From a virus (lineage: Duplodnaviria; Heunggongvirae; Uroviricota; Caudoviricetes), in the IMG/VR virus record IMGVR_UViG_3300044613_002694, positions 1 to 30,375 of that record: a DNA stretch of 30,375 nt. One strand, 5' to 3'. Below are positions 2,059 through 20,993 of this stretch, in pieces. A program made the position numbers and the translations under genes. Under the pieces are notes generated by a model that searched no databases, had not been told where the DNA came from, and saw nothing but the letters and a program-made list of their open reading frames with translations. How positions within the stretch are numbered: position 1 is the stretch's first letter; every line of letters begins with the position of its first letter.

Positions 2059-2069
2059 TGTGTTTTGGT

Positions 2070-2087
2070 ATATTGAGGTGATCATGA
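2070..2087 (+). promoter_or_regulatory. Non-coding leader copy of the array junction motif, serving as SD of unit 1
   Basis: ATATTGAGGTGATCATGA, 17/18 identical to junction ATATTGAGGTGGTCATGA; GAGGTGATC complements the 16S rRNA 3' end. Confidence 0.85.
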
Positions 2088-2266
2088 AGCGAGTAAAATT
2101 TAGTGCATCTACCTTCCGTAAATTCATGAATGAGACACAGGAGTTGAATTGGGTTGAGTCGTTTGAGTTACATGGGTTTAAGACGTATCGGTATGATTGT
2201 ACTAGTTATCCCAGGCATAGTTTGAGTGAAGAAGAGTATACCTGGTTTATATTGAGGTGGTCATGA
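2084..2266 (+). CDS. Array unit 1, class A
   Basis: Start after leader SD; ends WFILRWS. Confidence 0.85.
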   Translation: MKRVKFSASTFRKFMNETQELNWVESFELHGFKTYRYDCTSYPRHSLSEEEYTWFILRWS

Positions 2267-2487
2267 CATTTTGTATATTGTATGATGATTTACCTACATC
2301 AATAAAAAGCAATCTTGAGGAGCATTGTGGTTGGACTGCTGGTATTGATCCATCGATAGGTGACTTGTTATGTCAGCAAGTTGAGCGTAATGAGTTATTA
2401 AAATTTCATGCGACTATTTCTAACCATGATGTTATCGAATTTGAAAATGAAGCGTATTATACGTTATTTGTATTGAGGTGGTCATGA
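2263..2487 (+). CDS. Array unit 2, class D
   Basis: ATGA overlap; ends LFVLRWS. Confidence 0.85.
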   Translation: MTFCILYDDLPTSIKSNLEEHCGWTAGIDPSIGDLLCQQVERNELLKFHATISNHDVIEFENEAYYTLFVLRWS

Positions 2488-2672
2488 AGTATTTTAATTT
2501 ACTGGAGTTTCCGAAGTTTCTTGAAGAATATGAAAGTGACAGTGGTACTTGGTATGATAGTTTAAAAAGGGCTGGATATAGTTCAGTTGATCAGCATGGG
2601 CCGTTTGGACGTGAAAATTCGTATTCTATGAGTGATGAGCATTGGACTTGGTTTATATTGAGGTTTTTATGA
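2484..2672 (+). CDS. Array unit 3, class A
   Basis: ATGA overlap; ends WFILRFL. Confidence 0.85.
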   Translation: MKYFNLLEFPKFLEEYESDSGTWYDSLKRAGYSSVDQHGPFGRENSYSMSDEHWTWFILRFL

Positions 2673-2851
2673 TTTTTAATTTAATGGGGTTTCCGAAATT
2701 TCGTAGGTTTGCTGCTGGTGATGGGTATGATACATGGGAAGCTAGTTTACGTAATAATGGATTTCCATCTGCCAGGGTGCATGATTATAATGATTTAATA
2801 TATGAGATGGATGATATTGAGTATACTTGGTTTGTATTGAGGTGGTCATGA
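2669..2851 (+). CDS. Array unit 4, class A
   Basis: ATGA overlap; ends WFVLRWS. Confidence 0.85.
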   Translation: MIFNLMGFPKFRRFAAGDGYDTWEASLRNNGFPSARVHDYNDLIYEMDDIEYTWFVLRWS

Positions 2852-3036
2852 ATAGGGTATATTTTAATATTAAAGATTTTCCCAATTTTAGAAAAGAAGC
2901 ACTAAACTATTCAGGTACGCTCGATGATACGATGAGAAGAATGGGGTTTAAATCTGCAAAATTCAGACTTCAAGGTCCTAATGCATGGGGTTTAAGTGAA
3001 GAAGAATATACCTGGTTTGTGTTGAGGTTTTCATGA
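2848..3036 (+). CDS. Array unit 5, class A (5' half identical to unit 18)
   Basis: ATGA overlap; ends WFVLRFS. Confidence 0.85.
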   Translation: MNRVYFNIKDFPNFRKEALNYSGTLDDTMRRMGFKSAKFRLQGPNAWGLSEEEYTWFVLRFS

Positions 3037-3242
3037 AGCAGTTTCATATATCTGACTACCCAAATTTTTACTATTATGCAAAACGTATTGCTAAAGATGA
3101 ACTGGAGAGAACCGGTAAAAGACCCTTATATAGTGAGATAATGATACGTGAAGGATATAGATCTGCGATTATGGCTGAACCTGGGCAAGGTTGGTGTATG
3201 GATGATGTGGATTTTACTTGGTTTATATTGAGGTGGTCATGA
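3033..3242 (+). CDS. Array unit 6, class A
   Basis: ATGA overlap; ends WFILRWS. Confidence 0.85.
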   Translation: MKQFHISDYPNFYYYAKRIAKDELERTGKRPLYSEIMIREGYRSAIMAEPGQGWCMDDVDFTWFILRWS

Positions 3243-3448
3243 ATGTACTTACACTTACGTTATATAGGGAATCACGAGTGGGTCTTAACATTGTTAAGTT
3301 ATATATGGCATCTAGTTATTATAATTGGCCTGAGTTTATTAAAACACTTGATGATAATATAGTTGATGTTTTTGTTGCTCCCTTTTACACTGATATTACA
3401 TTTGAGAGTGAAGCACATAAGACTTGGTTCTTAATGAGGTATGCATGA
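3239..3448 (+). CDS. Array unit 7, class B
   Basis: ATGA overlap; ends WFLMRYA. Confidence 0.85.
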   Translation: MNVLTLTLYRESRVGLNIVKLYMASSYYNWPEFIKTLDDNIVDVFVAPFYTDITFESEAHKTWFLMRYA

Positions 3449-3693
3449 GTCAAAAATTAGGATGGAAAAAGAAATACCCGTTTAAAGCTACTATAAAAAG
3501 TGATAGTGTAGAAGCGTCAGCATGGTTAAGATCACAGTTTGGGCATGATTATTTAACACTATCGTCCGGTAGAAGGCTAGTACTCAATAGAAAAGACCGG
3601 GTATGGGCGTTTGAGAAATGGGAGTATACTGGTTCTACCTATGGATTTGGTAATGAAGAACATAAGACTTGGTTTTTATTGAGGTGGTCATGA
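3445..3693 (+). CDS. Array unit 8, class C-like
   Basis: ATGA overlap; ends WFLLRWS. Confidence 0.85.
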   Translation: MSQKLGWKKKYPFKATIKSDSVEASAWLRSQFGHDYLTLSSGRRLVLNRKDRVWAFEKWEYTGSTYGFGNEEHKTWFLLRWS

Positions 3694-3917
3694 GTCAATT
3701 AAAGGTAGTCACTTTCTCATCTATGGATCGTAATATCTATGCGGAATGGGAGTTATCAGAGAAATTTTATGGGTACGACATTTCTTGGACTGGGTATATA
3801 GAATCATTACCGCATGTTAAAGATGCAAAGTTTGTTTATGGGGATGGTGATTCATATACCTTGATCACATTTGATAGTGAAGAACATAAGACTTGGTTTA
3901 TATTGAGGTATTCATGA
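3690..3917 (+). CDS. Array unit 9, class B
   Basis: ATGA overlap; ends WFILRYS. Confidence 0.85.
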   Translation: MSQLKVVTFSSMDRNIYAEWELSEKFYGYDISWTGYIESLPHVKDAKFVYGDGDSYTLITFDSEEHKTWFILRYS

Positions 3918-4183
3918 AGAATATATTTACAGGCAATTGGCCTATTACATCAGATGGTTATTACATGGATCTTCCAGAAGGATGGGCTGGGGTATATACG
4001 GTTAAACAACTCAACTTACTTGGATTTGTTGCAGATTTGGAAGGTTATGCCGAGGTAGTAGACTGGATTCATAAAAACATCAAAAATGTTGATCGTAATG
4101 TATGGAGTAAGGGTTTTGGCAGTGCTCAATTTGCATTTAGAAAGAAATCGGATTATACTTGGTTTATATTGAGGTATTCATGA
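3914..4183 (+). CDS. Array unit 10, class C-like
   Basis: ATGA overlap; ends WFILRYS. Confidence 0.85.
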   Translation: MKNIFTGNWPITSDGYYMDLPEGWAGVYTVKQLNLLGFVADLEGYAEVVDWIHKNIKNVDRNVWSKGFGSAQFAFRKKSDYTWFILRYS

Positions 4184-4386
4184 TACAACTAAAAGTAAAA
4201 ATAAATTCAAGCATGGATCATAAATTACGTGAAGAATTCAACAACGTAGTTTGGGAAGACCTTATTATTGGGTATTATGGAATTATTGATGCCGAATATA
4301 TTCAATCAGGTAGTGAAACCGGTTGTACTACTATTGTATTTAAATCAGACGAATCTAAAACTTTTTTCTTAATAAAATACTCATGA
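4180..4386 (+). CDS. Array unit 11, class B
   Basis: ATGA overlap; ends FFLIKYS. Confidence 0.85.
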   Translation: MIQLKVKINSSMDHKLREEFNNVVWEDLIIGYYGIIDAEYIQSGSETGCTTIVFKSDESKTFFLIKYS

Positions 4387-4586
4387 TATATTATGTAGAT
4401 ATATTGCATACAACCACTTGGACAATTCAAGCGAGTGGTAGAGTTATGTTAACCTATGAAACTTCTGAATGGTTGAAAAAGAATTGTAAGGGTAGTTTCA
4501 TGTTAACCTGGGAAAACTGGCCATTTTATCGATTGGCGTTTAGTAATGAAGAAGATCGTAATTGGTTTGTATTGAGGTGGTCATGA
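4383..4586 (+). CDS. Array unit 12, class C
   Basis: ATGA overlap; ends WFVLRWS. Confidence 0.85.
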   Translation: MIYYVDILHTTTWTIQASGRVMLTYETSEWLKKNCKGSFMLTWENWPFYRLAFSNEEDRNWFVLRWS

Positions 4587-4777
4587 AAACAATTAAGATA
4601 AATGATTTTCCAAAATACACAACCGAGTTTCACAATGATGGATACGATACATGGGAAGATAGTATTAGGGCTAATGGATATAAAAGTGTAAAAGTTAATG
4701 CTGTCCATCCTTTTTTTGGCACGGTGTTAGATTTATCAGATGAAGATTATACTTGGTTCTTATTGAGGTGGTCATGA
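4583..4777 (+). CDS. Array unit 13, class A
   Basis: ATGA overlap; ends WFLLRWS. Confidence 0.85.
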   Translation: MKTIKINDFPKYTTEFHNDGYDTWEDSIRANGYKSVKVNAVHPFFGTVLDLSDEDYTWFLLRWS

Positions 4778-4989
4778 TAACCATCAAACCTTCACTGATG
4801 GATGAATGGTGGGTTAATTTTACCATGTCGTTATACGAGCAGGGATGGCTTGGAATGAGCTTTGAAAAACAATTGGTGGTACGCGAATCAGAATTAAATC
4901 GATACCATGTCACGTATGATATACATCAATATACCTTGACATTTGAGTCAGAAGCCTATTATAATTGGTTTATTTTGAGGTGGTCATGA
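4774..4989 (+). CDS. Array unit 14, class E body with D-type tail
   Basis: ATGA overlap; WWVNF motif; ends WFILRWS. Confidence 0.85.
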   Translation: MITIKPSLMDEWWVNFTMSLYEQGWLGMSFEKQLVVRESELNRYHVTYDIHQYTLTFESEAYYNWFILRWS

Positions 4990-5213
4990 GTTGTATGTTA
5001 CATATACCCTATGGTTCTGTTATGGACTATAAGTTAGAAGAGCAATGGTATATACCTGATTGTGCTGATGATATTCAATGGTCTAATTATTTATTATCGA
5101 TTAGTAAGGGTATAATTGATGTTCGTGCTGCAACAGTTAATGGGGTCAATGGTACTATAGTTAAATTCAACACAGAAGAACATAAGACTTGGTTTGTATT
5201 GAGGTGGTCATGA
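4986..5213 (+). CDS. Array unit 15, class B
   Basis: ATGA overlap; ends WFVLRWS. Confidence 0.85.
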   Translation: MSCMLHIPYGSVMDYKLEEQWYIPDCADDIQWSNYLLSISKGIIDVRAATVNGVNGTIVKFNTEEHKTWFVLRWS

Positions 5214-5404
5214 GTTGTATATTGGAGATACCAGTGATATCAACTTTAGAAGACAATATAGCCAAATATTATGGTACAATAGAGTGGCTGGATATAGCAA
5301 GGCATGAAGTTGGGATATCCAGTGTTTCATATAACAGATTTATTACCTACGTTGAGTTTGCAACTGAAGCACATAAGACTTGGTTTTTATTGAGGTGGTC
5401 ATGA
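5210..5404 (+). CDS. Array unit 16, class B
   Basis: ATGA overlap; ends WFLLRWS. Confidence 0.85.
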   Translation: MSCILEIPVISTLEDNIAKYYGTIEWLDIARHEVGISSVSYNRFITYVEFATEAHKTWFLLRWS

Positions 5405-5604
5405 GTCAATTAACGATAAAGAATAAATCTGCTTTGGAGAGAAAGTTATATGATGAATGGCGGAATAGTCCAGCTATAACATGGGTAGCCTTTATTAAGT
5501 CACTTGACAAGAATATTATTAGTGTTCGGTATGCTAATCCATACACTGATATTTGGTTTGATGATGATGCACGTAAGAATTGGTTTATATTGAGGTGGTC
5601 ATGA
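5401..5604 (+). CDS. Array unit 17, class B (close paralog of unit 24)
   Basis: ATGA overlap; ends WFILRWS. Confidence 0.85.
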   Translation: MSQLTIKNKSALERKLYDEWRNSPAITWVAFIKSLDKNIISVRYANPYTDIWFDDDARKNWFILRWS

Positions 5605-5792
5605 ATAGGGTATATTTTAATATTAAAGATTTTCCCAATTTTAGAAAAGAAGCACTAAACTATTCAGGTACGCTCGATGATACGATGAGAAGAATGGGTT
5701 ATAAAACTGCAACATTCAAAGCCAATGGTACTGTGAATGCATGGGGGTTGAGCGAAGAAGAATATACTTGGTTTGTATTGAGGTGGTCATGA
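5601..5792 (+). CDS. Array unit 18, class A
   Basis: ATGA overlap; ends WFVLRWS. Confidence 0.85.
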   Translation: MNRVYFNIKDFPNFRKEALNYSGTLDDTMRRMGYKTATFKANGTVNAWGLSEEEYTWFVLRWS

Positions 5793-6046
5793 TTAGATTA
5801 AGCATTTATAAACCAAGCATTATTGGTGCAACTGCTTGGGACAGTTGTACGAATGAATGGAAGACCATGGTGAGAGAACTGATGTCCAGGTATTCAGATT
5901 GGCCAGATCGTGATGATACCTGGTATCTAATTAATCAGGAATTACAGAAATATCATGGGAGTTTAGATAGGCTTGATAATGAGGTCAAAGAAATTATATT
6001 TGATAGTGCTGAAGGTAAGACTTGGTTTTTATTGAGGTATTCATGA
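5789..6046 (+). CDS. Array unit 19, class E-like
   Basis: ATGA overlap; ends WFLLRYS. Confidence 0.85.
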   Translation: MIRLSIYKPSIIGATAWDSCTNEWKTMVRELMSRYSDWPDRDDTWYLINQELQKYHGSLDRLDNEVKEIIFDSAEGKTWFLLRYS

Positions 6047-6249
6047 GTGAGTTATATTTAAAAGAGGGTACTGCGTTAGATCATAAACTGACTCGGCTAT
6101 TTTTTAGTAGTCAAACACGTGCTTGGTATAAGTTTGTTAAATCGCTTGATGAGAACATTATTGATGTCAGTGGTTTAACGGGTAGTATTACAAGAATCAC
6201 ATTTAACAGTGAAGCACATAAGACTTGGTTTATATTGAGGTATTCATGA
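6043..6249 (+). CDS. Array unit 20, class B
   Basis: ATGA overlap; ends WFILRYS. Confidence 0.85.
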   Translation: MSELYLKEGTALDHKLTRLFFSSQTRAWYKFVKSLDENIIDVSGLTGSITRITFNSEAHKTWFILRYS

Positions 6250-6461
6250 GTGTATTGTATATGGGTAATAATTTACCATTATATAAGAAACTGTCTGATT
6301 TATATTTGGCATCTAGTATTGTTGGGTGGTATAGTTTTATCAAATCGCTTGATGACAATATAGTTAGTGTTGACCGTGTTAAATTGGGTGGTGTTGAAGT
6401 TATGCAGATTGAATTTGATAATGAAGCACATAAGACTTGGTTTTTATTAAAATATTCATGA
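6246..6461 (+). CDS. Array unit 21, class B
   Basis: ATGA overlap; ends WFLLKYS. Confidence 0.85.
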   Translation: MSVLYMGNNLPLYKKLSDLYLASSIVGWYSFIKSLDDNIVSVDRVKLGGVEVMQIEFDNEAHKTWFLLKYS

Positions 6462-6691
6462 GTGAGTTAATTATAATGTCTAGTTCAACGATAGATGTTA
6501 ATCTTGAATCTGGGTGGGCTAGTGAATTTTATCAGATTGATGATTGGTTGGATTATTTGAAATCATTACCCACGGTCATTGATGCAACCTGGCATGAGCG
6601 TGAATGGAATGGTGGTGATAATCCATCATATACTTTGATCACATTTGAAAGTGAAGCACATAAGAATTGGTTTGTATTGAGGTGGTCATGA
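6458..6691 (+). CDS. Array unit 22, class B
   Basis: ATGA overlap; ends WFVLRWS. Confidence 0.85.
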   Translation: MSELIIMSSSTIDVNLESGWASEFYQIDDWLDYLKSLPTVIDATWHEREWNGGDNPSYTLITFESEAHKNWFVLRWS

Positions 6692-6909
6692 GTCAAGTAA
6701 AAGTACTTTTTAACTCAGCAATGGATTAAAATCTTGAAGAGTATGTACGTAGTGGCGTGAATAATGATTGGGAAGAAGTTATAAAATCATTACCCTATGT
6801 TAAAGATGCGAAATGGATTACTATTGGTTCGTCGATAGGTGGGTCCTATACTTTAATTACATTTGAAAATGAAGCACATAAGAATTGGTTTATAATGAGG
6901 TGGTCATGA
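6688..6909 (+). pseudogene. Array unit 23, class B, in-frame TAA at 6727-6729
   Basis: MSQVKVLFNSAMD*NLEEY...ITFENEAHKNWFIMRWS in one frame; could be an assembly error. Confidence 0.85.
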
Positions 6910-7109
6910 GTCAATTAACGATAAAGAATAATTCTACAATAGAGTGGAAGTTATACGATGCATGGAGAAATGCTGGAGTTTCATCATGGGAAATATTTAT
7001 TAAGTCACTTGACAAGAATATTATCAGGGTTCGTTACGATACCCCATATACAAATGTTTGGTTCAAGGATGACGCACACACAACTTGGTTTATTTTGAGG
7101 TGGTCATGA
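6906..7109 (+). CDS. Array unit 24, class B
   Basis: ATGA overlap; ends WFILRWS. Confidence 0.85.
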   Translation: MSQLTIKNNSTIEWKLYDAWRNAGVSSWEIFIKSLDKNIIRVRYDTPYTNVWFKDDAHTTWFILRWS

Positions 7110-7327
7110 GTGAATTAAAAGTACCCTCACCATCTACTATGGATAGTAATATCGAAGCGGAATGGGAATCATCAGAATCATATGGGTTCGATACTTGGAC
7201 AAGGTATATAGAATCATTACCTCACGTTAAATCAGCAAGGCTTGTTTTTAGAGCTGGTGATAATCATACCTTGATCACATTTGAAAATGAAGCGCATAAG
7301 AATTGGTTTATATTGAGGTATTCATGA
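7106..7327 (+). CDS. Array unit 25, class B
   Basis: ATGA overlap; ends WFILRYS. Confidence 0.85.
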   Translation: MSELKVPSPSTMDSNIEAEWESSESYGFDTWTRYIESLPHVKSARLVFRAGDNHTLITFENEAHKNWFILRYS

Positions 7328-7551
7328 TTTTTGATCCCCATACTATTAAGCTGACTGGTACTTTATATGATAATTGCATCTATGAAAATAGATTGTCAGA
7401 TGAAGTATGGGAGTGGTTATTTGACCATTGTAGTGGCCCTAATACTGATCGTTTTTATTATTATACTGGATACACGCCTGGAAGGGATACCCATTATATT
7501 CGGTTTGATTATAGGGAACATAGTAATTGGTTCTTATTGAGATGGAGTTAA
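7324..7551 (+). CDS. Array unit 26, class C
   Basis: ATGA overlap; ends WFLLRWS. Confidence 0.85.
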   Translation: MIFDPHTIKLTGTLYDNCIYENRLSDEVWEWLFDHCSGPNTDRFYYYTGYTPGRDTHYIRFDYREHSNWFLLRWS

Positions 7552-7552
7552 G

Positions 7553-7633
7553 ATGTCAATAAAAATTAATGAGTGTTCTATTGAATTCGACAATGAATCC
7601 TGTTATAATTGGGTTTTAGTGAGGTGGTCTTGA
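7553..7633 (+). CDS. Array unit 27, 26-aa mini-unit MSIKINECSIEFDNESCYNWVLVRWS
   Basis: Hand translation; N-terminus joined directly to the tail motif. Confidence 0.7.
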   Translation: MSIKINECSIEFDNESCYNWVLVRWS

Positions 7634-7848
7634 TTGATTTTATTTTATATGATGGTAGCCCACTTGATGTAAAATTAATGGCTATGTGGGAGGATGACCA
7701 CTACTCTGACCGGCTAAATTATGAAATTTTTGTTGGCTCATTAGATCCGCACATTGTCAATGCAAAAGCAGATGAAAATTATGCGTCAATTACCCTAACA
7801 TTTGAAAACGAAAAATATTTAACCTGGTTTATATTAAAATGGTCATAG
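7630..7848 (+). CDS. Array unit 28, class B-like, TTG start
   Basis: TTGA overlap after GAGG; ends WFILKWS. Confidence 0.8.
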   Translation: MIDFILYDGSPLDVKLMAMWEDDHYSDRLNYEIFVGSLDPHIVNAKADENYASITLTFENEKYLTWFILKWS

Positions 7849-8051
7849 AAAAAGAACAGTATCCGTATTCGATTAATACTTCCTGTATTAGACGTGCATT
7901 TAGGCAAGACATATGGGAGTGGTGCAATCATGTGTTCGGCCCTTATCAAGGTAATGATAAATGGTCATGGGGTGATGATATAGTTAAGTTTAGCACAATC
8001 CATTGTGCCGAGTTTTTTGCATGGAGGTGGTATGGATACGACGTGGACTGA
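7839..8051 (+). CDS. Array unit 29, class C, degenerate tail
   Basis: ATG from AAA-TGG of unit 28; ends FFAWRWYGYDVD. Confidence 0.75.
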   Translation: MVIEKEQYPYSINTSCIRRAFRQDIWEWCNHVFGPYQGNDKWSWGDDIVKFSTIHCAEFFAWRWYGYDVD

Positions 8052-8238
8052 GTTAACACGCACGATGTATCGGGAAATGGCACGTGACGCTCGTAGACAA
8101 GGTTACATTTTCAATAGTGATTTCATCCGCGCAGAAAATATTGGGGATTATTATCCACGAATTCGGAATTACGAATTTGGTGCGATTAAATTTAGAACCC
8201 CAGAATTAAAAACGTTTTATTTATTGAGGTGGTCATGA
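8032..8238 (+). CDS. Array unit 30, unclassified
   Basis: GGAGGTGG SD; ends FYLLRWS. Confidence 0.8.
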   Translation: MDTTWTELTRTMYREMARDARRQGYIFNSDFIRAENIGDYYPRIRNYEFGAIKFRTPELKTFYLLRWS

Positions 8239-8447
8239 AACAGGTTAAGATAGGGTTTGAGAATTTTTATTTAGAGGGTTTACTATTTAAACTTACCCCA
8301 GCAGTTACGAATTGGCTTATTGCACATAAAGTGGAAGATTACCGGGTAAGACATGAACATTTATATGATAGACCTGCTCTGGAAATAGAGTTCGGCGATA
8401 ATGTACCAGATGAAATAATCAATTGGTTTATTTTGAGATGGTTATGA
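8235..8447 (+). CDS. Array unit 31, class C-like
   Basis: ATGA overlap; ends WFILRWL. Confidence 0.85.
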   Translation: MKQVKIGFENFYLEGLLFKLTPAVTNWLIAHKVEDYRVRHEHLYDRPALEIEFGDNVPDEIINWFILRWL

Positions 8448-10337: not shown

Positions 10338-10338
10338 T

Positions 10339-14460: not shown

Positions 14461-14684
14461 CATTTGAAGTTAAGTTTAAAAACATACCAGACATAACTAG
14501 AGAGAATTTTCTAACAGCATGTGGTAAATATGATGATTTTGTATCCAAGTATGATTTCGACACAAGACGAAATCATGAATTAGCGAAGTGTAAAGGTAAC
14601 CGGGTTAGTAATGGTCTAGGTGAACTGGTATACGAATTTGAAAGTGAAGCCCATTATAATTGGTTTGTAGTGAGGTGGTCATGA
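14457..14684 (+). CDS. Array unit 59, class D
   Basis: ATGA overlap; ends WFVVRWS. Confidence 0.85.
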   Translation: MTFEVKFKNIPDITRENFLTACGKYDDFVSKYDFDTRRNHELAKCKGNRVSNGLGELVYEFESEAHYNWFVVRWS

Positions 14685-14905
14685 CTTTTGAAATTTATTT
14701 TGAAAACATACCACAAATTGTTAAAACGAATTTCCTTATAGATTGTGATAATTATCACCAGAGTGGTGTAAATCACATTAACGAAACAATTAATAAAGAA
14801 TTAGCGAAGTTCAAGGGTAAACGGTTTAAGAATTGCCATGACAAGCTGGTATACGAATTTGAAAGTGAAGCCCATTATAATTGGTTTGTATTGAGGTATT
14901 CGTAA
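14681..14905 (+). CDS. Array unit 60, class D
   Basis: ATGA overlap; ends WFVLRYS. Confidence 0.85.
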   Translation: MTFEIYFENIPQIVKTNFLIDCDNYHQSGVNHINETINKELAKFKGKRFKNCHDKLVYEFESEAHYNWFVLRYS

Positions 14906-15129
14906 TGTATAAAGTAACCATCCCATTTGATCCAGAATGGCCTGATGAAAACTGTAAGGTACTATTGGCAAAAGAATGGTGTCACCAAACGTTTGGTAGC
15001 CGTCGATGCCCAATTACGTTAAAGTATCGTTGGATGACTAGATATACGTGGACCGGTAATAGATATATAATATATTTCTTTTTTGAAAAAGAAGAACATG
15101 CAACGTAGTTCAAATTACAATGGGCATGA
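14905..15129 (+). pseudogene. Array unit 61, class C, motif Trp codon replaced by TAG at 15106-15108
   Basis: ...EKEEHAT*FKLQWA* in frame; only the tail motif is lost. Confidence 0.75.
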
Positions 15130-15368
15130 AATTTAAGACATTTGATAGTAGGGCTGATCTCGATCACCCATATGGTGTATGTTTAGAAGTGTTTGGCGAT
15201 ACTTATGAGATAACCTTTACCAAAATAGAAATTGATAATTGGTGCCTAGAACAGTTTGGTCCCGATGGGGATAAATGGGCAGGGGTAATGTATGTTGGTG
15301 AAAACTACATAAGGGTATATTTCAAATCTATTGATGATCGTAATTGGTTTTTATTGAGATGGACATGA
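15126..15368 (+). CDS. Array unit 62, class C
   Basis: ATGA overlap with the relic stop of unit 61; ends WFLLRWT. Confidence 0.85.
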   Translation: MKFKTFDSRADLDHPYGVCLEVFGDTYEITFTKIEIDNWCLEQFGPDGDKWAGVMYVGENYIRVYFKSIDDRNWFLLRWT

Positions 15369-15577
15369 TATCAATTAATATAACACATAAACAATGGAAC
15401 AAATTAGCATTCTATCGTGATGAGTCCGATTCTAGTATTGTGAATATGCGTTCATCACGAGAAATGAAACAATATATCAAAGATACCTATCATGGAAATT
15501 ATGATCAACTAAAAGGTTTTGGAACCATCACATTTGAACATGAACATCTTCTAACTTGGTTTTTATTAAATGTATGA
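15365..15577 (+). CDS. Array unit 63, unclassified
   Basis: ATGA overlap; ends WFLLNV. Confidence 0.85.
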   Translation: MISINITHKQWNKLAFYRDESDSSIVNMRSSREMKQYIKDTYHGNYDQLKGFGTITFEHEHLLTWFLLNV

Positions 15578-15794
15578 AATACAAATTAACACACGATAAT
15601 TGGAAAGATCTTGATAGCAAGTTTGACGCAAAAGCTGGCAGGTCGCTCGTTAGAAGTGATCGGATATGTTATGGAAGGAATCGATTATGCAGGAGTATAA
15701 ATTAGATTATGAAGAAGATTACACGAATAGTCGAGACCATGGCACTGTTTCCGGTGAAGCACATCGTATAACTTGGTTTCTATTAAACATATGA
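15574..15794 (+). pseudogene. Array unit 64, frameshifted relative of unit 63
   Basis: MKYKLTHDNWKDL... in one frame and DMLWKES...GEAHRITWFLLNI in another; the shift lies after ~15657. Confidence 0.75.
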
Positions 15795-16039
15795 TATTAC
15801 ATTTGGTAGACGGCGGGTTTTTAACACAACCCTCATGGTGGCAGAATTTCATAAACGATATCGATGATAGATTTCCAGATGCATTTCACTACTACGAAGA
15901 TGAAGAACGTGAACAGTTAATTAAAGTTGAATTTGCAAAGGTTGGTGCTATTCTTATAGATGATGAGTATGACGGTATACTGGGAGTTGAATTCCATGAT
16001 GATGCAAAAGCTACTTGGTTTATAATGAGGTGGTCATAA
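15791..16039 (+). CDS. Array unit 65, class E
   Basis: ATGA overlap; PSWWQNF; ends WFIMRWS. Confidence 0.85.
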   Translation: MILHLVDGGFLTQPSWWQNFINDIDDRFPDAFHYYEDEEREQLIKVEFAKVGAILIDDEYDGILGVEFHDDAKATWFIMRWS

Positions 16040-16240
16040 TTGAATAATATATTAAAAATACCATTGTTTTCAAAAATGGAAGATAATATATCAGCATTTT
16101 ATGGGACCAATCGCTGGATGAGTTCTGCATTGCTGGAAACTGGGATAGTCTCATGTCGGTTTACATCTGAGTCGTGTGAAACCATAATTACATTTGAAAC
16201 CGACGCTCATAAGAATTGGTTTATAATAAGGTGGTCATGA
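16040..16240 (+). CDS. Array unit 66, class B, TTG start
   Basis: Abuts previous TAA; ends WFIIRWS. Confidence 0.8.
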   Translation: MNNILKIPLFSKMEDNISAFYGTNRWMSSALLETGIVSCRFTSESCETIITFETDAHKNWFIIRWS

Positions 16241-16461
16241 GTTTACCTAGAAATGGTGCATATGAGCTATTCATCAATAATGGTTTTGTATATTGTTTTG
16301 AATTATCATCAAACCCATTATTACTGGAGTCCGACGAATTACACAATTGGATTAGACAACAACCCAAAGAATTATGGCATGGTATGAATCCACCATATCA
16401 CAAAACGGCATATTATTTAAAACCTGAACTATATAATTGGTTCAAATTGAGGTGGTCATGA
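16237..16461 (+). CDS. Array unit 67, related to unit 57
   Basis: ATGA overlap; ends WFKLRWS. Confidence 0.85.
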   Translation: MSLPRNGAYELFINNGFVYCFELSSNPLLLESDELHNWIRQQPKELWHGMNPPYHKTAYYLKPELYNWFKLRWS

Positions 16462-16688
16462 AACTTGTAACAAGTAAAGAAATTGGTGTTCAACTACACA
16501 ACGTTCTTGCCGAACATAAGGCATTAATCGAGGAATACTCCGATGTTAATTTAAAAATTGACTTTCTAGAAAAACTTTGTAAATTCAGAGTTGTTGGTGA
16601 GTATAAGTCAATCACGCATTTTAAGGTAAAGTATGCAATTTTTGAACGAGAAGAAGATTTTACCTGGTTTATATTAAAATGGTCTTAA
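16458..16688 (+). CDS. Array unit 68, unclassified
   Basis: ATGA overlap; ends WFILKWS. Confidence 0.85.
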   Translation: MKLVTSKEIGVQLHNVLAEHKALIEEYSDVNLKIDFLEKLCKFRVVGEYKSITHFKVKYAIFEREEDFTWFILKWS

Positions 16689-16957
16689 CAAAAGCAAAAT
16701 CAAATCCATTATATCACTTCATTAATGTTATATGCACTGATGAAGAATTTATAGAATGCACTAGATGGTGTACTAAATCATTTGGGCATGCTGGTGATCG
16801 ATCATGGAACATGGAGTTATTGACAGACAATTTAGATGTTGCAAATAAATTGTTGTTGATTCAACGTAAACTGGTTAATCCAGTTGACCATAACTATCGG
16901 TTTAGATTTGCAAAAATTGAACATCGTGATTGGTTTGTGTTAAAATGGTCTTCATAG
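16679..16957 (+). CDS. Array unit 69, class C
   Basis: ATG from AAA-TGG; ends WFVLKWSS. Confidence 0.8.
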   Translation: MVLTKAKSNPLYHFINVICTDEEFIECTRWCTKSFGHAGDRSWNMELLTDNLDVANKLLLIQRKLVNPVDHNYRFRFAKIEHRDWFVLKWSS

Positions 16958-17163
16958 TAAAGTGGTGTGACATACCCGATAATGTCATAGAAAAATTGTG
17001 TTATGAGTGTGGCAGTGTTGACTTAAGTATTACTGCGGTAAAATATGTTGAGAATGTTGAAGCAGAATTCAATAAGTATGGCGGTTCAGGCAGGATATAC
17101 CGTACTATTTACTTTAACAATGAAGCGTGTTATACTTGGTTTTTATTAAGGTGGAGCCAATGA
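16945..17163 (+). CDS. Array unit 70, class D
   Basis: ATG from AAA-TGG; MVFIVKW aligns with MSFIVKW of unit 73; ends WFLLRWSQ. Confidence 0.85.
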   Translation: MVFIVKWCDIPDNVIEKLCYECGSVDLSITAVKYVENVEAEFNKYGGSGRIYRTIYFNNEACYTWFLLRWSQ

Positions 17164-17423
17164 GATTAGAAATTCCAGGTGAAAATTTTTATGAAACCCC
17201 ATTATGGTGGCAAAACTTTATCGACCATCATGAAAAAATCTTTGTGAAAACACATGGTGATTTAACTGTTAATTTTATGATATACACTTCAAATATTTTG
17301 CAATCTGAATACGGTGCTGTTAAAATTTATGAGCAAAATCCAAAAACTGGAAGAGACGAACTAACAGCATTAGAGTTTAATAAAGAAGAAACTCAAACTT
17401 GGTTTTTATTAAAATGGTCATAA
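17160..17423 (+). CDS. Array unit 71, class E (paralog of unit 38)
   Basis: ATGA overlap; ends WFLLKWS. Confidence 0.85.
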   Translation: MRLEIPGENFYETPLWWQNFIDHHEKIFVKTHGDLTVNFMIYTSNILQSEYGAVKIYEQNPKTGRDELTALEFNKEETQTWFLLKWS

Positions 17424-17821
17424 ACCAATTATCTAGAAGATTAAATGCAGTTGGGTTATCATTACAAGAGGATTTTGATTCATTATATAGGAATGGAAGT
17501 TGCTCTTGTCATTGGCACCCACCTTGTAGTTATTGTACACATCCAGGTAATCCATTAAATTTAGAAGAATCAGACGATGTATGGGAAACCGGTATGATAT
17601 GTGAAACTGTAGAAAGCAATCAGCATGATTTTAAATATATGGTTGGATATTTCTTACCATCAGAGATGAAAGAAATGATAGCGTGGTTGACAGAAACATT
17701 TGGTCCATATTCTCATGGTTGGAAGTTTATAGATAATACCAGATGGTATTGTGGCAATAGTCATTTTGTTTTTAAAACAGAAGCTGATCGTAATTGGTTT
17801 GTAATGAGGTGGAGTTCATGA
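17414..17821 (+). CDS. Array unit 72, Cys/His-rich N-terminal domain fused to a class C unit
   Basis: CSCHWHPPCSYC motif; ends WFVMRWSS. Confidence 0.8.
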   Translation: MVINQLSRRLNAVGLSLQEDFDSLYRNGSCSCHWHPPCSYCTHPGNPLNLEESDDVWETGMICETVESNQHDFKYMVGYFLPSEMKEMIAWLTETFGPYSHGWKFIDNTRWYCGNSHFVFKTEADRNWFVMRWSS

Positions 17822-18060
17822 GTTTTATTGTTAAATGGTCCGATATATCTGACCAAGTATGTGAAAATTTTACAAGAGCTTGTGGGTCGATGGATGATTC
17901 TATATCTGCTGACGAATATCTTGATAATATGGAAGATGCATTTGCCCAATTTAAAGCCTATGAATTATATGATGATGAATCACTCAGAGAAATAGAGTTT
18001 GATAGAGTCGTATTTGAAAATGAAGCTTATTACACTTGGTTTGTAATGAGGTTTTCATGA
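17818..18060 (+). CDS. Array unit 73, class D
   Basis: ATGA overlap; ends WFVMRFS. Confidence 0.85.
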   Translation: MSFIVKWSDISDQVCENFTRACGSMDDSISADEYLDNMEDAFAQFKAYELYDDESLREIEFDRVVFENEAYYTWFVMRFS

Positions 18061-18299
18061 CTGTTACTATATTGTGGGATGATATTCCTGATCCGGCACG
18101 AGAAAACTTTCTTGTAGAATGTGGTGCTCTTAATAGTGATTTGAATCTAGATGAATATCACAAGAATATGGCAAAGCTGTTTGCGGAATGCAAAGCTTAT
18201 GAATTTCATGAAAATCCAGCACATAAATACAACCGATTTGACAAAATAATATTTGAAAACGTAGCATGCTATAATTGGTTCTTAATGAGGTTTTTATGA
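18057..18299 (+). CDS. Array unit 74, class D
   Basis: ATGA overlap; ends WFLMRFL. Confidence 0.85.
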   Translation: MTVTILWDDIPDPARENFLVECGALNSDLNLDEYHKNMAKLFAECKAYEFHENPAHKYNRFDKIIFENVACYNWFLMRFL

Positions 18300-18499
18300 A
18301 AGTCAAGATTTATGAAATGGACCTATATGACAAAGCGTTATCAGTATATCCAGAATATGAATGGATGGCAATTGATGAGTTTATCAGGAAGTTAGGATTT
18401 AAAAGTTGCAATTTCATTAGTAAAATACCTGGTACAGAGTCATATTGGGAAATGGATGAAGTTGAATTTACTTGGTTTGCATTAAAGTATAGTGGGTAA
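18296..18499 (+). CDS. Array unit 75, class A
   Basis: ATGA overlap; ends WFALKYSG. Confidence 0.85.
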   Translation: MKVKIYEMDLYDKALSVYPEYEWMAIDEFIRKLGFKSCNFISKIPGTESYWEMDEVEFTWFALKYSG

Positions 18500-18501
18500 C
18501 T

Positions 18502-18690
18502 ATGAAATATTTTCATGGATGGTGGGTTTGTCACACCACTATAGATAATTTCGATGATTTCAACTGGTGTTGTGAACAATTCGGAAAACCAGAAATGAAC
18601 CGAAGATGGTTCTATAATCATGTTGAACGAAAATTTTATTTTGGACGAGAGGAAGATGCAATGTGGTATACTTTAAGGTGGTCAGCGTGA
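18502..18690 (+). CDS. Array unit 76, class C
   Basis: 2-nt gap; ends WYTLRWSA. Confidence 0.85.
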   Translation: MKYFHGWWVCHTTIDNFDDFNWCCEQFGKPEMNRRWFYNHVERKFYFGREEDAMWYTLRWSA

Positions 18691-18938
18691 TTCAATTACC
18701 AACACCTAGAGCATACAAAGCTATAAAATGGTTTGATGCCAATGCTAGTACTGTCATGTTATCGATGCAGAGGACTTCTGGAATTATAAGTTGGGGAGAA
18801 TACCTTGAAAAATATGATGAGAAATTTAGTAAAGAGTTTCATTGTAAGTTAGTCCGTAATGAAAAGTTACATTATATCGAATATTTAGAGTTCGAAGATG
18901 ACAAATATATGACTTGGTTTCTTTTGAATTGGTCATGA
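18687..18938 (+). CDS. Array unit 77, unclassified, GTG start
   Basis: GTGA overlap; ends WFLLNWS. Confidence 0.8.
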   Translation: MIQLPTPRAYKAIKWFDANASTVMLSMQRTSGIISWGEYLEKYDEKFSKEFHCKLVRNEKLHYIEYLEFEDDKYMTWFLLNWS

Positions 18939-19147
18939 TTAAGCATTCATTAAGCAGATCTGAAATAGCTAACATAGTTAATTATTCAATAGCACATGAA
19001 ATATCAATAGAATCATGTATTAAAGAATGGGGTGGTCAATACGATAACGCAACGCATATTAGAAATCCACATCACCCAGATTATTGGGGGATTGTCAAAT
19101 TTGAAACAGAAGCACTGCGAACTTGGTTTATATTAAGGTGGTCATGA
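18935..19147 (+). CDS. Array unit 78, unclassified
   Basis: ATGA overlap; ends WFILRWS. Confidence 0.85.
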   Translation: MIKHSLSRSEIANIVNYSIAHEISIESCIKEWGGQYDNATHIRNPHHPDYWGIVKFETEALRTWFILRWS

Positions 19148-19413
19148 GAATAGAAGATGAACGGTTACGTTACAAAGTCATCATTGATGATTTAGCGGAT
19201 CTCAGAAAACATGCAGGGGAATTACCACCAGAATACAGTGATACTGATTATGATGAAATAGTCAGGGTCATGTGTGACTGGTGTGAACATCAATTTGGTA
19301 AGAAGAAAGTAAAATGGAATTATTGGCTAGATAGCGCTTATGATCCGCCTGAAGATAATTTCAGTTTTCAAGAAGAACATCATAGAACACTTTTTATATT
19401 GAGATGGTCATGA
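19144..19413 (+). CDS. Array unit 79, class C
   Basis: ATGA overlap; ends LFILRWS. Confidence 0.85.
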   Translation: MRIEDERLRYKVIIDDLADLRKHAGELPPEYSDTDYDEIVRVMCDWCEHQFGKKKVKWNYWLDSAYDPPEDNFSFQEEHHRTLFILRWS

Positions 19414-19601
19414 AACAGTTTAAGATATCTAATTTTCCAAAGTTTGTTGAGTATGCTTACTCCAATCCAGAACTAAATAATTTGAATCAATGGGATGAGA
19501 TATTAGCAGCTGCCGGTTTCAAAACAGCAATATATAATGGCATTAATTCCTGGTGCATGGATGATGAAGAATATACTTGGTTTGTGTTGAGGTGGTCATG
19601 A
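19410..19601 (+). CDS. Array unit 80, class A
   Basis: ATGA overlap; ends WFVLRWS. Confidence 0.85.
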   Translation: MKQFKISNFPKFVEYAYSNPELNNLNQWDEILAAAGFKTAIYNGINSWCMDDEEYTWFVLRWS

Positions 19602-19804
19602 GAGTAATCACCTGCCGTGGCACAGACAATTACCCATACGGAGTTATCATCAGAGAACCATCATCTGATAGAAGCATGATTACACAATGGTGTGTAGATC
19701 AATTTGGAAGTCAATACGAGTCTGATCGATATAGATATGCTGGGAATTTAATATATTTTTCAAATCAAGATGACCGAAATTGGTTTATATTAAGGTGGTC
19801 ATGA
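19598..19804 (+). CDS. Array unit 81, class C
   Basis: ATGA overlap; ends WFILRWS. Confidence 0.85.
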   Translation: MRVITCRGTDNYPYGVIIREPSSDRSMITQWCVDQFGSQYESDRYRYAGNLIYFSNQDDRNWFILRWS

Positions 19805-20091
19805 ATATTTTTAAAAGAATTTACAATTATGTGTTAATTAAGTTTCGACCACCCTATGTTTTGTTATCACGCAAAGATACAGATCTCTTATGGAAGAAAT
19901 ATTGCAACTGCAAATTTAATGGGGGGAAGTATAAGTTTATCAGGGATTTTATCAAAGATGAATTTAAAGGCATTTCAGCTGTTGAGTGGACTACTACTGC
20001 TACTGATGAACCATTTGACCAATTAAAATTGACATTCGAAAAAGAACAATACAAAACATGGTTTTTACTAAATTGGGAATATCATGACTAA
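19801..20091 (+). CDS. Array unit 82, unclassified
   Basis: ATGA overlap; ends WFLLNWEYHD. Confidence 0.85.
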   Translation: MNIFKRIYNYVLIKFRPPYVLLSRKDTDLLWKKYCNCKFNGGKYKFIRDFIKDEFKGISAVEWTTTATDEPFDQLKLTFEKEQYKTWFLLNWEYHD

Positions 20092-20290
20092 AGAATTCAA
20101 AATTAGCATATACCATTTACCATCTAGCATGCGTGATAAGTTAGGTGATGAATTCCATACGTGGAATTCATCAAAATTGTATGAAGAATTGGCCACATTC
20201 AATGGCAGATTAGCATTAGTTAATGATTGGCGGTATCTTATATTTCAAAGTGAAGCACACTTTCAATGGTTTTCTATGAAATGGCTATAA
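20084..20290 (+). CDS. Array unit 83, class D-like
   Basis: 8-nt overlap; ends WFSMKWL. Confidence 0.85.
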   Translation: MTKEFKISIYHLPSSMRDKLGDEFHTWNSSKLYEELATFNGRLALVNDWRYLIFQSEAHFQWFSMKWL

Positions 20291-20493
20291 TTAAGCGATG
20301 CTATGGGTTCATACCTTATTCCAATGCCTATGATTATTATTTGGCAAATCTCAAAGACGGTGATAAGGTTAGAAGCATAATTGAAGAGGAGTATCATTGC
20401 AAATTTATATATCGTGATATGACAATTTCAGGTATATGTATGCAATTTGACAATGATGAAGATTACACTTGGTTTGTATTAAAATGGTCATGA
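20281..20493 (+). CDS. Array unit 84, unclassified
   Basis: ATG from AAA-TGG; ends WFVLKWS. Confidence 0.8.
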   Translation: MAIIKRCYGFIPYSNAYDYYLANLKDGDKVRSIIEEEYHCKFIYRDMTISGICMQFDNDEDYTWFVLKWS

Positions 20494-20747
20494 AACCTAA
20501 AAGAATAATTATGTATGGATGGCCGGATTGTCCTGTCTATTGGCAGGATTTTCTAATGTCACTACTTCCTATACTTGCTACATTACCTGATAGACCAGCA
20601 AGAATTGATTATGTCAATGACATACTAAAGAAATATCATGGCACATACACCGAGAATATATTTCATGAGGAGTCACTAGTGAATGTATTACTATTTGAAG
20701 ATGAATCATATTACAATTGGTTTGTAATACAATGGGGATCTAAATGA
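20490..20747 (+). CDS. Array unit 85, class E
   Basis: ATGA overlap; CPVYWQDF; ends WFVIQWGSK. Confidence 0.85.
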   Translation: MKPKRIIMYGWPDCPVYWQDFLMSLLPILATLPDRPARIDYVNDILKKYHGTYTENIFHEESLVNVLLFEDESYYNWFVIQWGSK

Positions 20748-20962
20748 CATCCAATGAAAAATATATTGTTAATAATATTCCACCTAATATAGAGAAGAAT
20801 ATAGATGAGATTACTGGATATAATGATCGATCTGTCCCATTCGAGAGTTGGGTAGAAGCAGAAAGACAATTATTAGCAGATTATGGATGTGAACTGAGTG
20901 ATGCAGGTTATGAATTCGAGAGTGAAGCACATTACACTTGGTTAATATTAAAATTTTCTTGA
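20744..20962 (+). CDS. Array unit 86 (last), class D-like
   Basis: ATGA overlap; ends WLILKFS; SD lost; stop lies inside the next -35. Confidence 0.85.
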   Translation: MTSNEKYIVNNIPPNIEKNIDEITGYNDRSVPFESWVEAERQLLADYGCELSDAGYEFESEAHYTWLILKFS

Positions 20963-20987: not shown

Positions 20988-20993
20988 AACATC

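What the first reader, a model, noticed from the sequence alone, without database searches (positions are those of the whole stretch)
2084..20962. Junction repeats decay with distance from the promoter (array polarity)
Seen (hand count): the exact 15-mer TTGAGGTGGTCATGA ends 24 of the first 45 units (2084-11367) but only 6 of the last 42 (11364-20962). A second exact allele, TTGAGGTATTCATGA, ends six units (9, 10, 19, 20, 25, 35), all in the first half. The long exact matches between non-adjacent units that I found (5/18, 20/35, 9/35, 40/42) are also in the first half, and the last junction has lost the SD. Known: CRISPR arrays and integrons show younger units at the leader end. Inference: polarised growth or homogenisation near the promoter.
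Basis: partly seen in the sequence, partly recalled or inferred. Interest (0 to 1): 0.8.

Follow-up and report, generated by a model that had tools for sequence, protein, structure and literature searches.

The report
Two-zone small-gene cassette array in phage
In this uncultured phage's chain of 86 tiny related genes, the stop/start signal between genes is well kept in the first ~50 genes and degraded in the last ~36, but this is a step between an actively recombining block and a quiet, diverged block, not a gradual fade away from the promoter.

Summary
The exact 15-mer TTGAGGTGGTCATGA ends 24 of the first 45 units and 6 of the last 41. The second allele ends units 9, 10, 19, 20, 25 and 35. 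The trend survives block permutation (p about 0.002).

The junction is the family's C-terminal codons (L-R-W-S-stop). These also form the Shine-Dalgarno site and the ATGA stop/start overlap of the next gene.

- The pattern is a step, best after unit 44-50 (support interval units 39-61), with no trend inside either block.
- An internal perfect sigma-70 promoter at 11577-11605 lies in that interval.
- Most of the decay is at peptide level: variant C-termini, weaker SD and fewer ATGA overlaps.
- The proximal block holds two expanded, interleaved subfamilies and most exact repeats of 30 nt or more; none lies beyond 14.9 kb.
- It also holds every clean whole-cassette difference among near-identical strains, after units 1, 14 and 22.
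- The distal block is mostly singleton paralogs.
- Cassette differences are not confined to the leader, and 18 arrays of the family in other phages show no general polarity (9 positive, 9 negative).

Most likely this is junction-mediated homologous recombination in a younger block plus selection on a dual-use junction, not CRISPR- or integron-like polar acquisition. This scan has noted similar junction-bounded cassette arrays in other phages.

The parts
1354..1998 (+). Gene just upstream of the array, with an N-terminal zinc-ribbon-like part and a C-terminal endonuclease VII-like part. It is a possible nuclease, noted only as a lead.
   Evidence: It matches phrog_1035 'endonuclease VII' at E = 4e-25 and phrog_2340 'endonuclease'. 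There is no Pfam, NCBIfam or PDB sequence match.
2003..2024 (+). Terminator-like hairpin that ends the upstream gene
   Evidence: Pattern scan: 7-pair stem with 5 G-C pairs, followed by a T run.
2030..2058 (+). Leader promoter-like site (TTGACT, 17 nt, TAGTAT, with TG before the -10 hexamer), matching 9 of 12 positions
   Evidence: Found by the promoter scan and conserved in the strains that cover it. It is weaker than the 12/12 promoters this genome uses elsewhere.
2066..2087 (+). Non-coding copy of the junction in the leader (…TATTGAGGTGATCATGA), giving the SD and start of unit 1
   Evidence: Read directly from the sequence.
2084..12702 (+). Block A, units 1-50. Junctions are well kept: 52% exact 15-mer and about 80% within 2 mismatches. 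It is dominated by two interleaved expanded subfamilies and holds most of the long exact repeats and chimeras.
2243..2266 (+). Junction after unit 1. Strains L291 and L293 carry one extra, novel cassette here, flanked by the same 24-nt junction.
4936..4965 (+). Perfect 12/12 sigma-70 consensus match inside unit 14. It overlaps the conserved L-T-F-E-S-E-A-Y-Y-N coding motif, so it may be fortuitous.
4966..4989 (+). Junction after unit 14, a hotspot with three alternative states. The window joins unit 14 to 15; L291 has two extra cassettes; the contig behind L279 has a different cassette before unit 15.
6668..6693 (+). Junction after unit 22. Strain L290 has one extra novel cassette here.
6688..6909 (+). 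Unit 23, with an in-frame TAA at 6727-6729. It looks like a pseudogene or restarts internally.
11577..11605 (+). Internal perfect sigma-70 promoter (TTGACA, 17 nt, TATAAT) inside unit 46. It lies within the change-point interval, and its sequence just after the -10 hexamer resembles that of the promoter at 20959.
   Evidence: Found and identical in 16 strain loci. Unit 46 is not called as a gene in some strains.
12699..20962 (+). Block B, units 51-86. Only 11% of junctions are exact. C-termini vary (LKWS, MRWG, MRFS, or one extra residue), the SD is weaker and ATGA overlaps are fewer. Most units are singleton paralogs, and no exact repeat of 30 nt or more lies beyond 14897.
15574..15794 (+). 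Frameshifted unit, a pseudogene-like remnant that ends …TWFLLNI
20959..20987 (+). Perfect sigma-70 promoter directly after the last unit, followed by about 550 nt with no + strand ORF of 40 aa or more
   Evidence: Rfam gives no match.

Best explanation
The array is a translationally coupled chain of 86 genes of one phage-only small-protein family.

**The junction has three roles.**
- It encodes the end of the conserved C-terminal helix (W-F-x-L-R-W-S).
- Through forced codon choice (TTG AGG TGG TCA TGA) it gives a 9-nt Shine-Dalgarno match.
- It gives the ATGA stop/start overlap for the next gene.
Selection on these roles sets the family-wide optimum sequence.

**The positional contrast is two blocks of different history.**
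- In block A (units 1 to about 45-50) two subfamilies have expanded and been interleaved cassette by cassette.
- There the 24-40-nt identical junctions serve as homology for ectopic or unequal homologous recombination.
- That recombination makes single-cassette copies, chimeras, and cassette gains or losses, and in turn keeps the junctions alike.
- Block B (about units 46/51 to 86), which probably has its own promoter at 11577, consists of older, mostly unique paralogs.
- In block B the C-termini, SD and overlaps have drifted and now offer too little homology for such exchange.

**Shown and inferred.** Shown: the step, the codon constraint, the cassette polymorphisms bounded by junctions, the subfamily distribution, and the lack of general polarity in other arrays. 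Inferred: that recombination at junctions is the cause, and that the promoters are active.
For: - **Step, not gradient.** The change point is best at unit 50 for exact junctions (support units 43-61) and at unit 44 for junctions within 2 mismatches (support 39-51). The permutation p for the step statistic is 0.001, and there is no trend inside either block.
- **Decay at peptide level.** The strict peptide WF[ILV]LRWS ends 25 of the first 45 units and 7 of the last 41. Among units with the strict peptide, the exact 15-mer is used in 22 of 25 and 5 of 7.
- **Coupling weakens distally.** ATGA overlaps fall from 41 of 45 to 25 of 40 junctions, and the SD duplex energy weakens (rho 0.30, p = 0.006).
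- **Codon constraint at the junction.** AGG is 55 of 61 Arg codons against 16% in unit bodies. TTG is 47 of 60 Leu codons against 17%. TCA is 58 of 66 Ser codons against 29%. P values are 1e-37 to 5e-23.
- **Selected optimum.** The same 15-mer and LRWS ending occur in arrays of distant phages whose unit bodies are unrelated at the DNA level.
- **Recency of exchange.** The longest exact in-register junction match falls from about 37 nt in units 1-20 to about 10-13 nt in units 61-86 (rho -0.52, p = 4e-7). All exact repeats of 30 nt or more lie in 2822-14897.
- **Subfamilies.** SF1 has 13 of 15 members and SF2 11 of 12 members in units 1-50, interleaved. Singletons are 16 of 50 there against 23 of 36 in units 51-86 (p = 0.004).
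- **Single-cassette copying.** Nearest paralogs are rarely neighbours; the median distance is 19.5 units.
- **Strain differences.** In 37 records at about 8-10x depth, five clean cassette-level differences at three junctions all lie in the first 22 units. Each is flanked by the identical 24-nt junction, and the extra cassettes are novel family members. The distal part has none (Fisher p = 0.02-0.05).
- **Promoters.** Perfect promoters are a real feature of this genome: 14 on the + strand of 94 kb against 0.03 expected per 30 kb. One lies at 11577.
Against: - The change-point interval is wide (units 39-61), so its coincidence with the promoter at 11577 may be chance.
- The length of the longest exact junction match looks more like a gradient than a step.
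- Strain records are not independent and were fetched by exact-protein look-ups. Distal coverage is therefore biased towards close strains, and when all structural events are counted the contrast is 5 against 2 (p = 0.26).
- SNP density within single records shows no consistent difference between the blocks.
- Promoter activity and recombination at junctions are inferred, not observed.
- Two other clusters in the same genome (56933-58474 and 31957-34193) do show junctions that are good at the 5' end and poor at the 3' end. This hints at some directional process.
Confidence: 0.55

Rival explanations
1. New cassettes enter at, or are homogenised from, the leader or promoter end, as in CRISPR arrays or at an integron attI site. 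Age would then increase with distance from the leader.
For: - One polymorphic cassette sits directly behind unit 1 in two strains.
- The leader holds a non-coding copy of the junction.
- The longest exact junction matches are in units 1-20.
- Some other arrays have good junctions at the 5' end and poor ones at the 3' end: own genome 56933-58474 (Hamming 1, 1, 1, 5, 10, 10, 11), G006 (rho 0.55, p = 0.016) and L331 (rho 0.9).
Against: - There is no trend within units 1-50 (rho 0.09).
- Cassette differences also lie after units 14 and 22.
- No integrase, Cas or other site-specific recombinase was found among the window's genes.
- The 18 other arrays split 9 positive to 9 negative, with median rho 0.035. 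Several have both edges degraded (G010, G008).
- Duplicated pairs are scattered (5/18, 13/45, 9/25), not stacked at the leader.
Confidence: 0.12
2. This rival is a selection gradient from expression polarity. A damaged junction uncouples translation and may cause Rho-dependent termination, which lowers expression of every downstream gene. Purifying selection on junctions would therefore be strongest upstream and weakest downstream, and arrays would erode from the 3' end.
For: - SD strength and ATGA overlaps decline distally.
- The last junction of every array is free of constraint.
- Several arrays and two other clusters of this genome degrade towards the 3' end.
- Pseudogene-like units exist.
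Against: - It predicts a smooth decline from each promoter, but the pattern is flat inside both blocks. The junctions right after the 11577 promoter (units 46-48) are among the poorest.
- With promoters at 2030 and 11577, junction quality does not correlate with distance to the nearest upstream promoter (rho 0.06, p = 0.59).
- There is no general polarity in 18 other arrays.
- It does not explain why duplicates, chimeras and cassette indels are also proximal.
Confidence: 0.15
3. This rival is historical accident. The array is a fusion of two arrays, or simply a run of subfamilies with different C-termini. The contrast would reflect ancestry alone, with no continuing process.
For: - The pattern is step-like and matches the subfamily composition.
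- The related phage G005 has a 12-unit array in a different genomic context. Its units best match window units in the order 41, 17, 8, 49, 49, 57, 75, 63, 79, 67, so a coarse order is kept.
Against: - Continuing processes are visible: cassette-level polymorphism among strains about 99.8% identical, and chimeric units with 65-111-nt exact segments, all in block A.
- The codon-level constraint shows active selection on the junction.
Confidence: 0.15

Closest known systems
PeSL (promoter-early stem-loop) mobile regulatory cassettes in the hyperplastic regions of T4-type phages (Arbiol et al. 2010, PMC2839356; Comeau et al. 2014, PMC4122927)
   Same: A short repeated regulatory sequence at the boundaries of small non-essential early genes serves as homology for recombination. 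That recombination inserts, deletes and replaces single genes between very close relatives. Here the strain differences are bounded exactly by the repeat.
   Different: The repeat here is not a promoter plus terminator. It is the coding end of the gene fused to the SD and ATGA overlap of the next gene. All cassettes belong to one protein family, and the array is one long coupled chain of 86 genes. Mini-circles were not examined.
Integron cassette arrays (attI, attC, the IntI integrase and the Pc promoter)
   Same: A co-oriented array of promoterless cassettes lies behind a leader promoter, and cassettes are gained and lost as units.
   Different: There is no integrase nearby, and no folded attC-type site was seen. 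Cassette differences are not restricted to the first position, and the cassettes are paralogs rather than unrelated genes.
CRISPR arrays with leader-proximal spacer acquisition
   Same: Identical short repeats separate unique units, and the repeat degenerates at the far end of the array.
   Different: The units are protein-coding genes. There is no Cas machinery, no graded age from the leader, and polymorphism lies at internal junctions.
Recombination-driven segmental amplification in viruses ('genomic accordions'): T4 tifA (Srikant et al. 2022, PMC9391042), SegB-driven amplification in T6 (Chihara et al. 2026, PMC13096335) and poxvirus K3L
   Same: Tandem copy-number change arises by recombination between short homologies in accessory early genes, probably under host-defence pressure. 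A nuclease-like gene sits beside the array, as segB does beside its amplified segment.
   Different: Accordion copies are near-identical and transient. Here the unit bodies are mostly unalignable at the DNA level and only the junction is shared. No link to the neighbouring nuclease-like gene was tested.
Concerted evolution of tandem repeats by unequal crossing-over, with diverged units at array edges (rDNA, satellites; from general knowledge)
   Same: Homogeneity is kept by exchange between repeats and lost where exchange is rare. Some arrays of this family (G010, G008) do have both edges degraded.
   Different: In this array only the 3' part is degraded. The 5' edge is homogeneous right up to unit 1.

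Membership tests
CRISPR-like polar array | New units are added only at the leader-proximal end | tested here: not met
   Cassette-level differences among near-identical strains lie after units 1, 14 and 22. Junction quality shows no trend within units 1-50.
CRISPR-like polar array | Adaptation machinery (cas1/cas2) is present at the locus | tested here: not met
   PHROG, Pfam and NCBIfam scans of the window's larger genes show none. Only the window's genes were scanned.
Integron | A tyrosine-recombinase integrase gene lies next to the first cassette | tested here: not met
   The upstream gene 1354-1998 matches only endonuclease-type PHROGs, and no integrase was found in the window.
Integron | attC sites (imperfect inverted repeats that fold as single strands) lie at cassette ends | not tested
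   The junction was not folded. By eye its only palindrome is TCATGA.
Integron | Cassettes are inserted preferentially at attI, next to the promoter | tested here: inconclusive
   One of three polymorphic sites is the first junction. The sample is too small, and the direction of each event (gain or loss) is unknown.
PeSL-type junction-mediated cassette shuffling | Insertions, deletions and replacements between close relatives are bounded by the repeated motif | tested here: met
   Extra cassettes in L291, L293 and L290 are flanked on both sides by the identical 24-nt junction. A third allele is present before unit 15 in L279.
PeSL-type junction-mediated cassette shuffling | The motif is a strong sigma-70 promoter plus a stem-loop terminator | tested here: not met
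   The junction is coding sequence plus SD plus ATGA. Only two internal consensus promoters lie within the array itself.
Genomic accordion or recent segmental amplification | Tandem copies are near-identical | tested here: not met
   Most unit bodies have no detectable DNA similarity to any other unit. The best pairs are 77-93% identical and are not adjacent.
Genomic accordion or recent segmental amplification | Copy number is polymorphic between close strains | tested here: met
   Strains differ by one or two whole cassettes at three junctions.
Translationally coupled operon | Stop/start overlaps with an SD inside the upstream gene | tested here: met
   Sixty-six of 85 junctions are ATGA overlaps, and the SD duplex averages about -11 kcal/mol in units 1-40. 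Actual coupling was not measured.

The most novel reading that the evidence does not exclude
The junction repeat may be the recombination site of an integrase-free, integron-like cassette platform. Single small-protein cassettes would be copied, swapped and exchanged between arrays and between phages at the 24-nt SD/stop-start junction. A hot zone would lie next to the leader, perhaps fed by breaks made by the neighbouring endonuclease-like gene. Under this reading, the translation signal of an operon would double as the portable joint of a diversity-generating gene library.
Probability: 0.15. Interest if true: 0.8.

Novelty: new variant of a known kind. Interest (0 to 1): 0.45.

Why it matters
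Large uncultured phages repeatedly carry long chains of tiny related genes whose function and dynamics are unknown. This case shows three things with numbers:
- One short sequence is at once the protein end, the ribosome-binding site and the stop/start overlap.
- Where it stays identical, whole genes are gained, lost and recombined between strains that are otherwise about 99.8% identical.
- Where it has drifted, the array is static.

This gives a testable rule for where such arrays evolve: junction identity of about 24 nt or more. It also argues against reading every positional contrast as CRISPR-like polarity. If the proteins are counter-defence or host-takeover factors, the active block is where new specificities would appear.

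Tried and rejected
- Megablast and tblastn against the phage collection found no close relative of the flanks or of a unit.
- Relatives found through the two flanking proteins in IMG/VR (about 40-45% identity) had no family array within 10 kb. They could not serve for a synteny test.
Read-level joints and expression could therefore not be examined, and read laying was not used.
- PHROG, Pfam and NCBIfam gave no family for the units.
- The AlphaFold model of unit 13 is confident (pLDDT 90.5; strand, two helices, two strands, helix). It has no significant match in PDB or BFVD, only weak winged-helix-like rows with TM about 0.35.
- Rfam gave no match in the window.
- The SNP-divergence gradient between strains was rejected as evidence. 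The pooled per-unit divergence (rho -0.23) is driven by which strains each look-up returned. Within single records there is no consistent difference between the blocks.
- Distance to the nearest upstream consensus promoter does not explain junction quality once the 11577 promoter is counted.
- Multi-unit block duplications (higher-order repeats) were looked for and not seen. Similar pairs are single units.

Full report
**What is there**

From 2084 to 20962 the + strand is tiled by 86 small genes by my count, mostly 60-90 codons. A profile built from them finds 117 family members in the 94-kb contig. Further clusters lie at 32-34, 37-40, 51 and 57-58.5 kb on the + strand and at about 67-76.5 kb on the - strand.

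- The family has no Pfam, PHROG or NCBIfam model.
- It has 437 clusters at 50% identity among 1.84 billion representatives, all small stand-alone proteins.
- It gives a confident AlphaFold model (pLDDT 90.5; strand, two helices, two strands, helix) with no significant structural match.

**The junction**

Each protein ends in W-F-(I/L/V)-L-R-W-S. The codons TTG AGG TGG TCA TGA contain GAGGTGGTC, which pairs with the 3' end of 16S rRNA, and the ATGA overlap that starts the next gene.

Codon choice at the junction is strongly forced:

| Codon | At the junction | In unit bodies | p |
|---|---|---|---|
| AGG (Arg) | 55 of 61 | 16% | 1e-37 |
| TTG (Leu) | 47 of 60 | 17% | 3e-25 |
| TCA (Ser) | 58 of 66 | 29% | 5e-23 |

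The same 15-mer and LRWS ending are found in arrays of distant phage contigs whose unit bodies are unrelated at the DNA level. The exact junction is therefore a selected optimum of the whole family. It is not only the product of local homogenisation.

**Check of the observation**

All counts are confirmed.
- The exact 15-mer has 30 hits, 24 ending at or before 11367 and 6 beyond.
- The second allele has 6 hits, at units 9, 10, 19, 20, 25 and 35.
- Fisher p = 2e-4. The Hamming distance to the consensus against unit index gives rho 0.43, p = 4e-5.
- Block permutations, which allow for autocorrelation, give p = 0.0015-0.003.
- The nearest-paralog trend is weak (rho -0.23 to -0.28).

**Shape of the signal**

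The signal is a step rather than a fade.
- A two-rate model puts the change after unit 50 for exact junctions (52% against 11%) and after unit 44 for junctions within 2 mismatches (80% against 36%).
- The support intervals are units 43-61 and 39-51. The permutation p for the step statistic is 0.001.
- Inside units 1-50 rho is 0.09, and inside units 51-86 it is 0.01.
- The decay is mainly at peptide level. The strict C-terminal peptide ends 25 of the first 45 units and 7 of the last 41. Given that peptide, the exact DNA 15-mer is used in 22 of 25 and 5 of 7.
- Distal units end in LKWS, MRWG or MRFS, or carry one extra residue. The SD duplex is weaker (rho 0.30, p = 0.006), and ATGA overlaps fall from 41 of 45 to 25 of 40.

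**Promoters**

This genome uses perfect TTGACA-N16-18-TATAAT promoters. There are 14 on the + strand of 94 kb against 0.03 expected per 30 kb.
- Two lie inside the array. The one at 4936-4965 overlaps a conserved coding motif and may be fortuitous. The one at 11577-11605 lies in unit 46.
- A third follows the last unit at 20959.
- The leader site at 2030-2058 matches only 9 of 12 positions.
- The 11577 site lies within the change-point interval. Counting it, junction quality is unrelated to distance from the nearest upstream promoter (rho 0.06).

'Distance from the promoter' is therefore a doubtful axis. Promoter activity itself is inferred from the consensus match only.

**Where the array is dynamic**

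- **Exact junction matches.** The longest exact in-register match between junctions averages 37 nt in units 1-20 and 10-13 nt in units 61-86 (rho -0.52, p = 4e-7).
- **Long exact repeats.** Every exact repeat of 30 nt or more lies between 2822 and 14897.
- **Subfamilies.** Clustering of unit bodies gives two expanded subfamilies. One has 13 of 15 members and the other 11 of 12 members within units 1-50, interleaved rather than in blocks. Singletons are 16 of 50 there against 23 of 36 in units 51-86 (p = 0.004).
- **Copying unit by unit.** Nearest paralogs are a median of 19.5 units apart, so copying is cassette by cassette and not simple neighbour duplication.

**Near-identical strains**

Exact-protein look-ups returned 37 distinct records at about 8-10x depth over the whole array. 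Most are 99.4-100% identical to the window.

Clean whole-cassette differences:
- After unit 1, one extra cassette in L291 and L293.
- After unit 14, two extra cassettes in L291 and a different preceding cassette in L279.
- After unit 22, one extra cassette in L290.

Each difference is bounded on both sides by the identical 24-nt junction. The extra cassettes are novel family members, at most 73% identical in DNA to any window unit. Whether each difference arose as a gain or a loss is not known.

The distal part shows none of these in 354 junction-strain pairs, against 5 in 316 proximal pairs (Fisher p = 0.023, or 0.049 if the L279 case is left out). The strains are not independent. One strain (L281) has a distal IS605/TnpB-associated replacement and a block of diverged units. 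Counting these, the contrast is 5 against 2 (p = 0.26). SNP density within single records shows no consistent difference between blocks.

**Other arrays**

- Within this genome, the clusters at 56933-58474 (Hamming 1, 1, 1, 5, 10, 10, 11) and 31957-34193 (rho 0.66) go the same way. Three others do not.
- In 18 distinct arrays of 6-22 units from other phage contigs, 9 have positive and 9 negative rho, with median 0.035 (Wilcoxon p = 0.36).
- Some mirror this window (G006: 19 units, rho 0.55, p = 0.016). Others have both edges degraded (G010, G008), as unequal crossing-over would predict.
- Polarity is therefore not a general property of the family's arrays.
- A moderately related phage (G005) has a 12-unit array in a different genomic context. 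Its flanks resemble 74-80 kb of this contig. Its units best match window units 41, 17, 8 (92% aa), 49, 49, 57, 75, 63 (87%), 79 and 67, in that order. Cassettes move between loci, but a coarse order is kept.

**Conclusion**

The best reading (confidence about 0.55) has three parts:
- a dual-use junction kept by selection;
- a younger proximal block where identical junctions drive cassette-level homologous recombination and are in turn kept alike by it;
- an older distal block, probably separately transcribed, where the junction has drifted below useful homology.

The rivals each explain part of the data and are not excluded: CRISPR- or integron-like polar acquisition at 0.12, a selection gradient from expression polarity at 0.15, and pure ancestry at 0.15.

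The closest known system is PeSL-mediated shuffling in T4-type phages (PMC2839356, PMC4122927). This array differs in that its repeat is a coding-plus-translation signal.

Recombination-driven amplification of phage accessory genes is documented in PMC9391042 and PMC13096335. The second paper makes the endonuclease-like gene at 1354-1998, directly upstream of the array, a lead worth testing. Nothing here links it to the array.

Noticed in passing
window 20959-21543: A perfect sigma-70 promoter directly after the last unit is followed by about 550 nt with no + strand ORF of 40 aa or more. It may be a non-coding RNA or a long leader for the ADP-ribosyltransferase gene. Rfam gives no match.
   Followed up: partly
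L281:5540-6890, and own contig 68190-69492: One near-identical strain carries an IS605-family OrfB/TnpB element inside the array, replacing window 15696-16844. It is 90% identical to an element at 68.2-69.5 kb of this phage contig, so the phage lineage carries a mobile TnpB element.
   Followed up: partly
window 21543-22274 and 23720-26743: Downstream of the array lie an ART-PolyVal ADP-ribosyltransferase (Pfam E = 6e-23) and a 1007-aa protein. That protein's last 54 residues match sigma-70 region 1.1 (Pfam E = 2.5e-12).
   Followed up: no
window 4966-4989: The junction after unit 14 has three alternative states among near-identical strains: no insert, two extra cassettes, or a different preceding cassette. 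It is a cassette hotspot.
   Followed up: partly
window 6688-6909, 7548-7633, 15574-15794: These units look like pseudogenes: an in-frame TAA at 6727-6729, a 28-codon remnant, and a frameshifted unit. Unit 46 (11555-11758), which holds the internal promoter, is not called as a gene in several strains.
   Followed up: partly
L292, aligned to window 2084: In one strain the start codon of unit 1 reads CTG instead of ATG. Small 6- and 9-nt in-frame indels separate strains in units 2, 5, 18 and 82.
   Followed up: no
L315 / L085 (record G005), about 91.5-95 kb of that contig: A related phage has a 12-unit array of the family in another genomic context. It includes close orthologs of window units 8 (92% aa) and 63 (87% aa), which lie 12 kb apart in this window.
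   Followed up: partly
own contig, whole length: The contig has at least 14 perfect TTGACA-N16-18-TATAAT promoters on the + strand and 4 on the - strand. Several share sequence just downstream of the -10 hexamer (…ACATCAAA… at 11577 and 20959; …ACAC/ACAA… at others).
   Followed up: no
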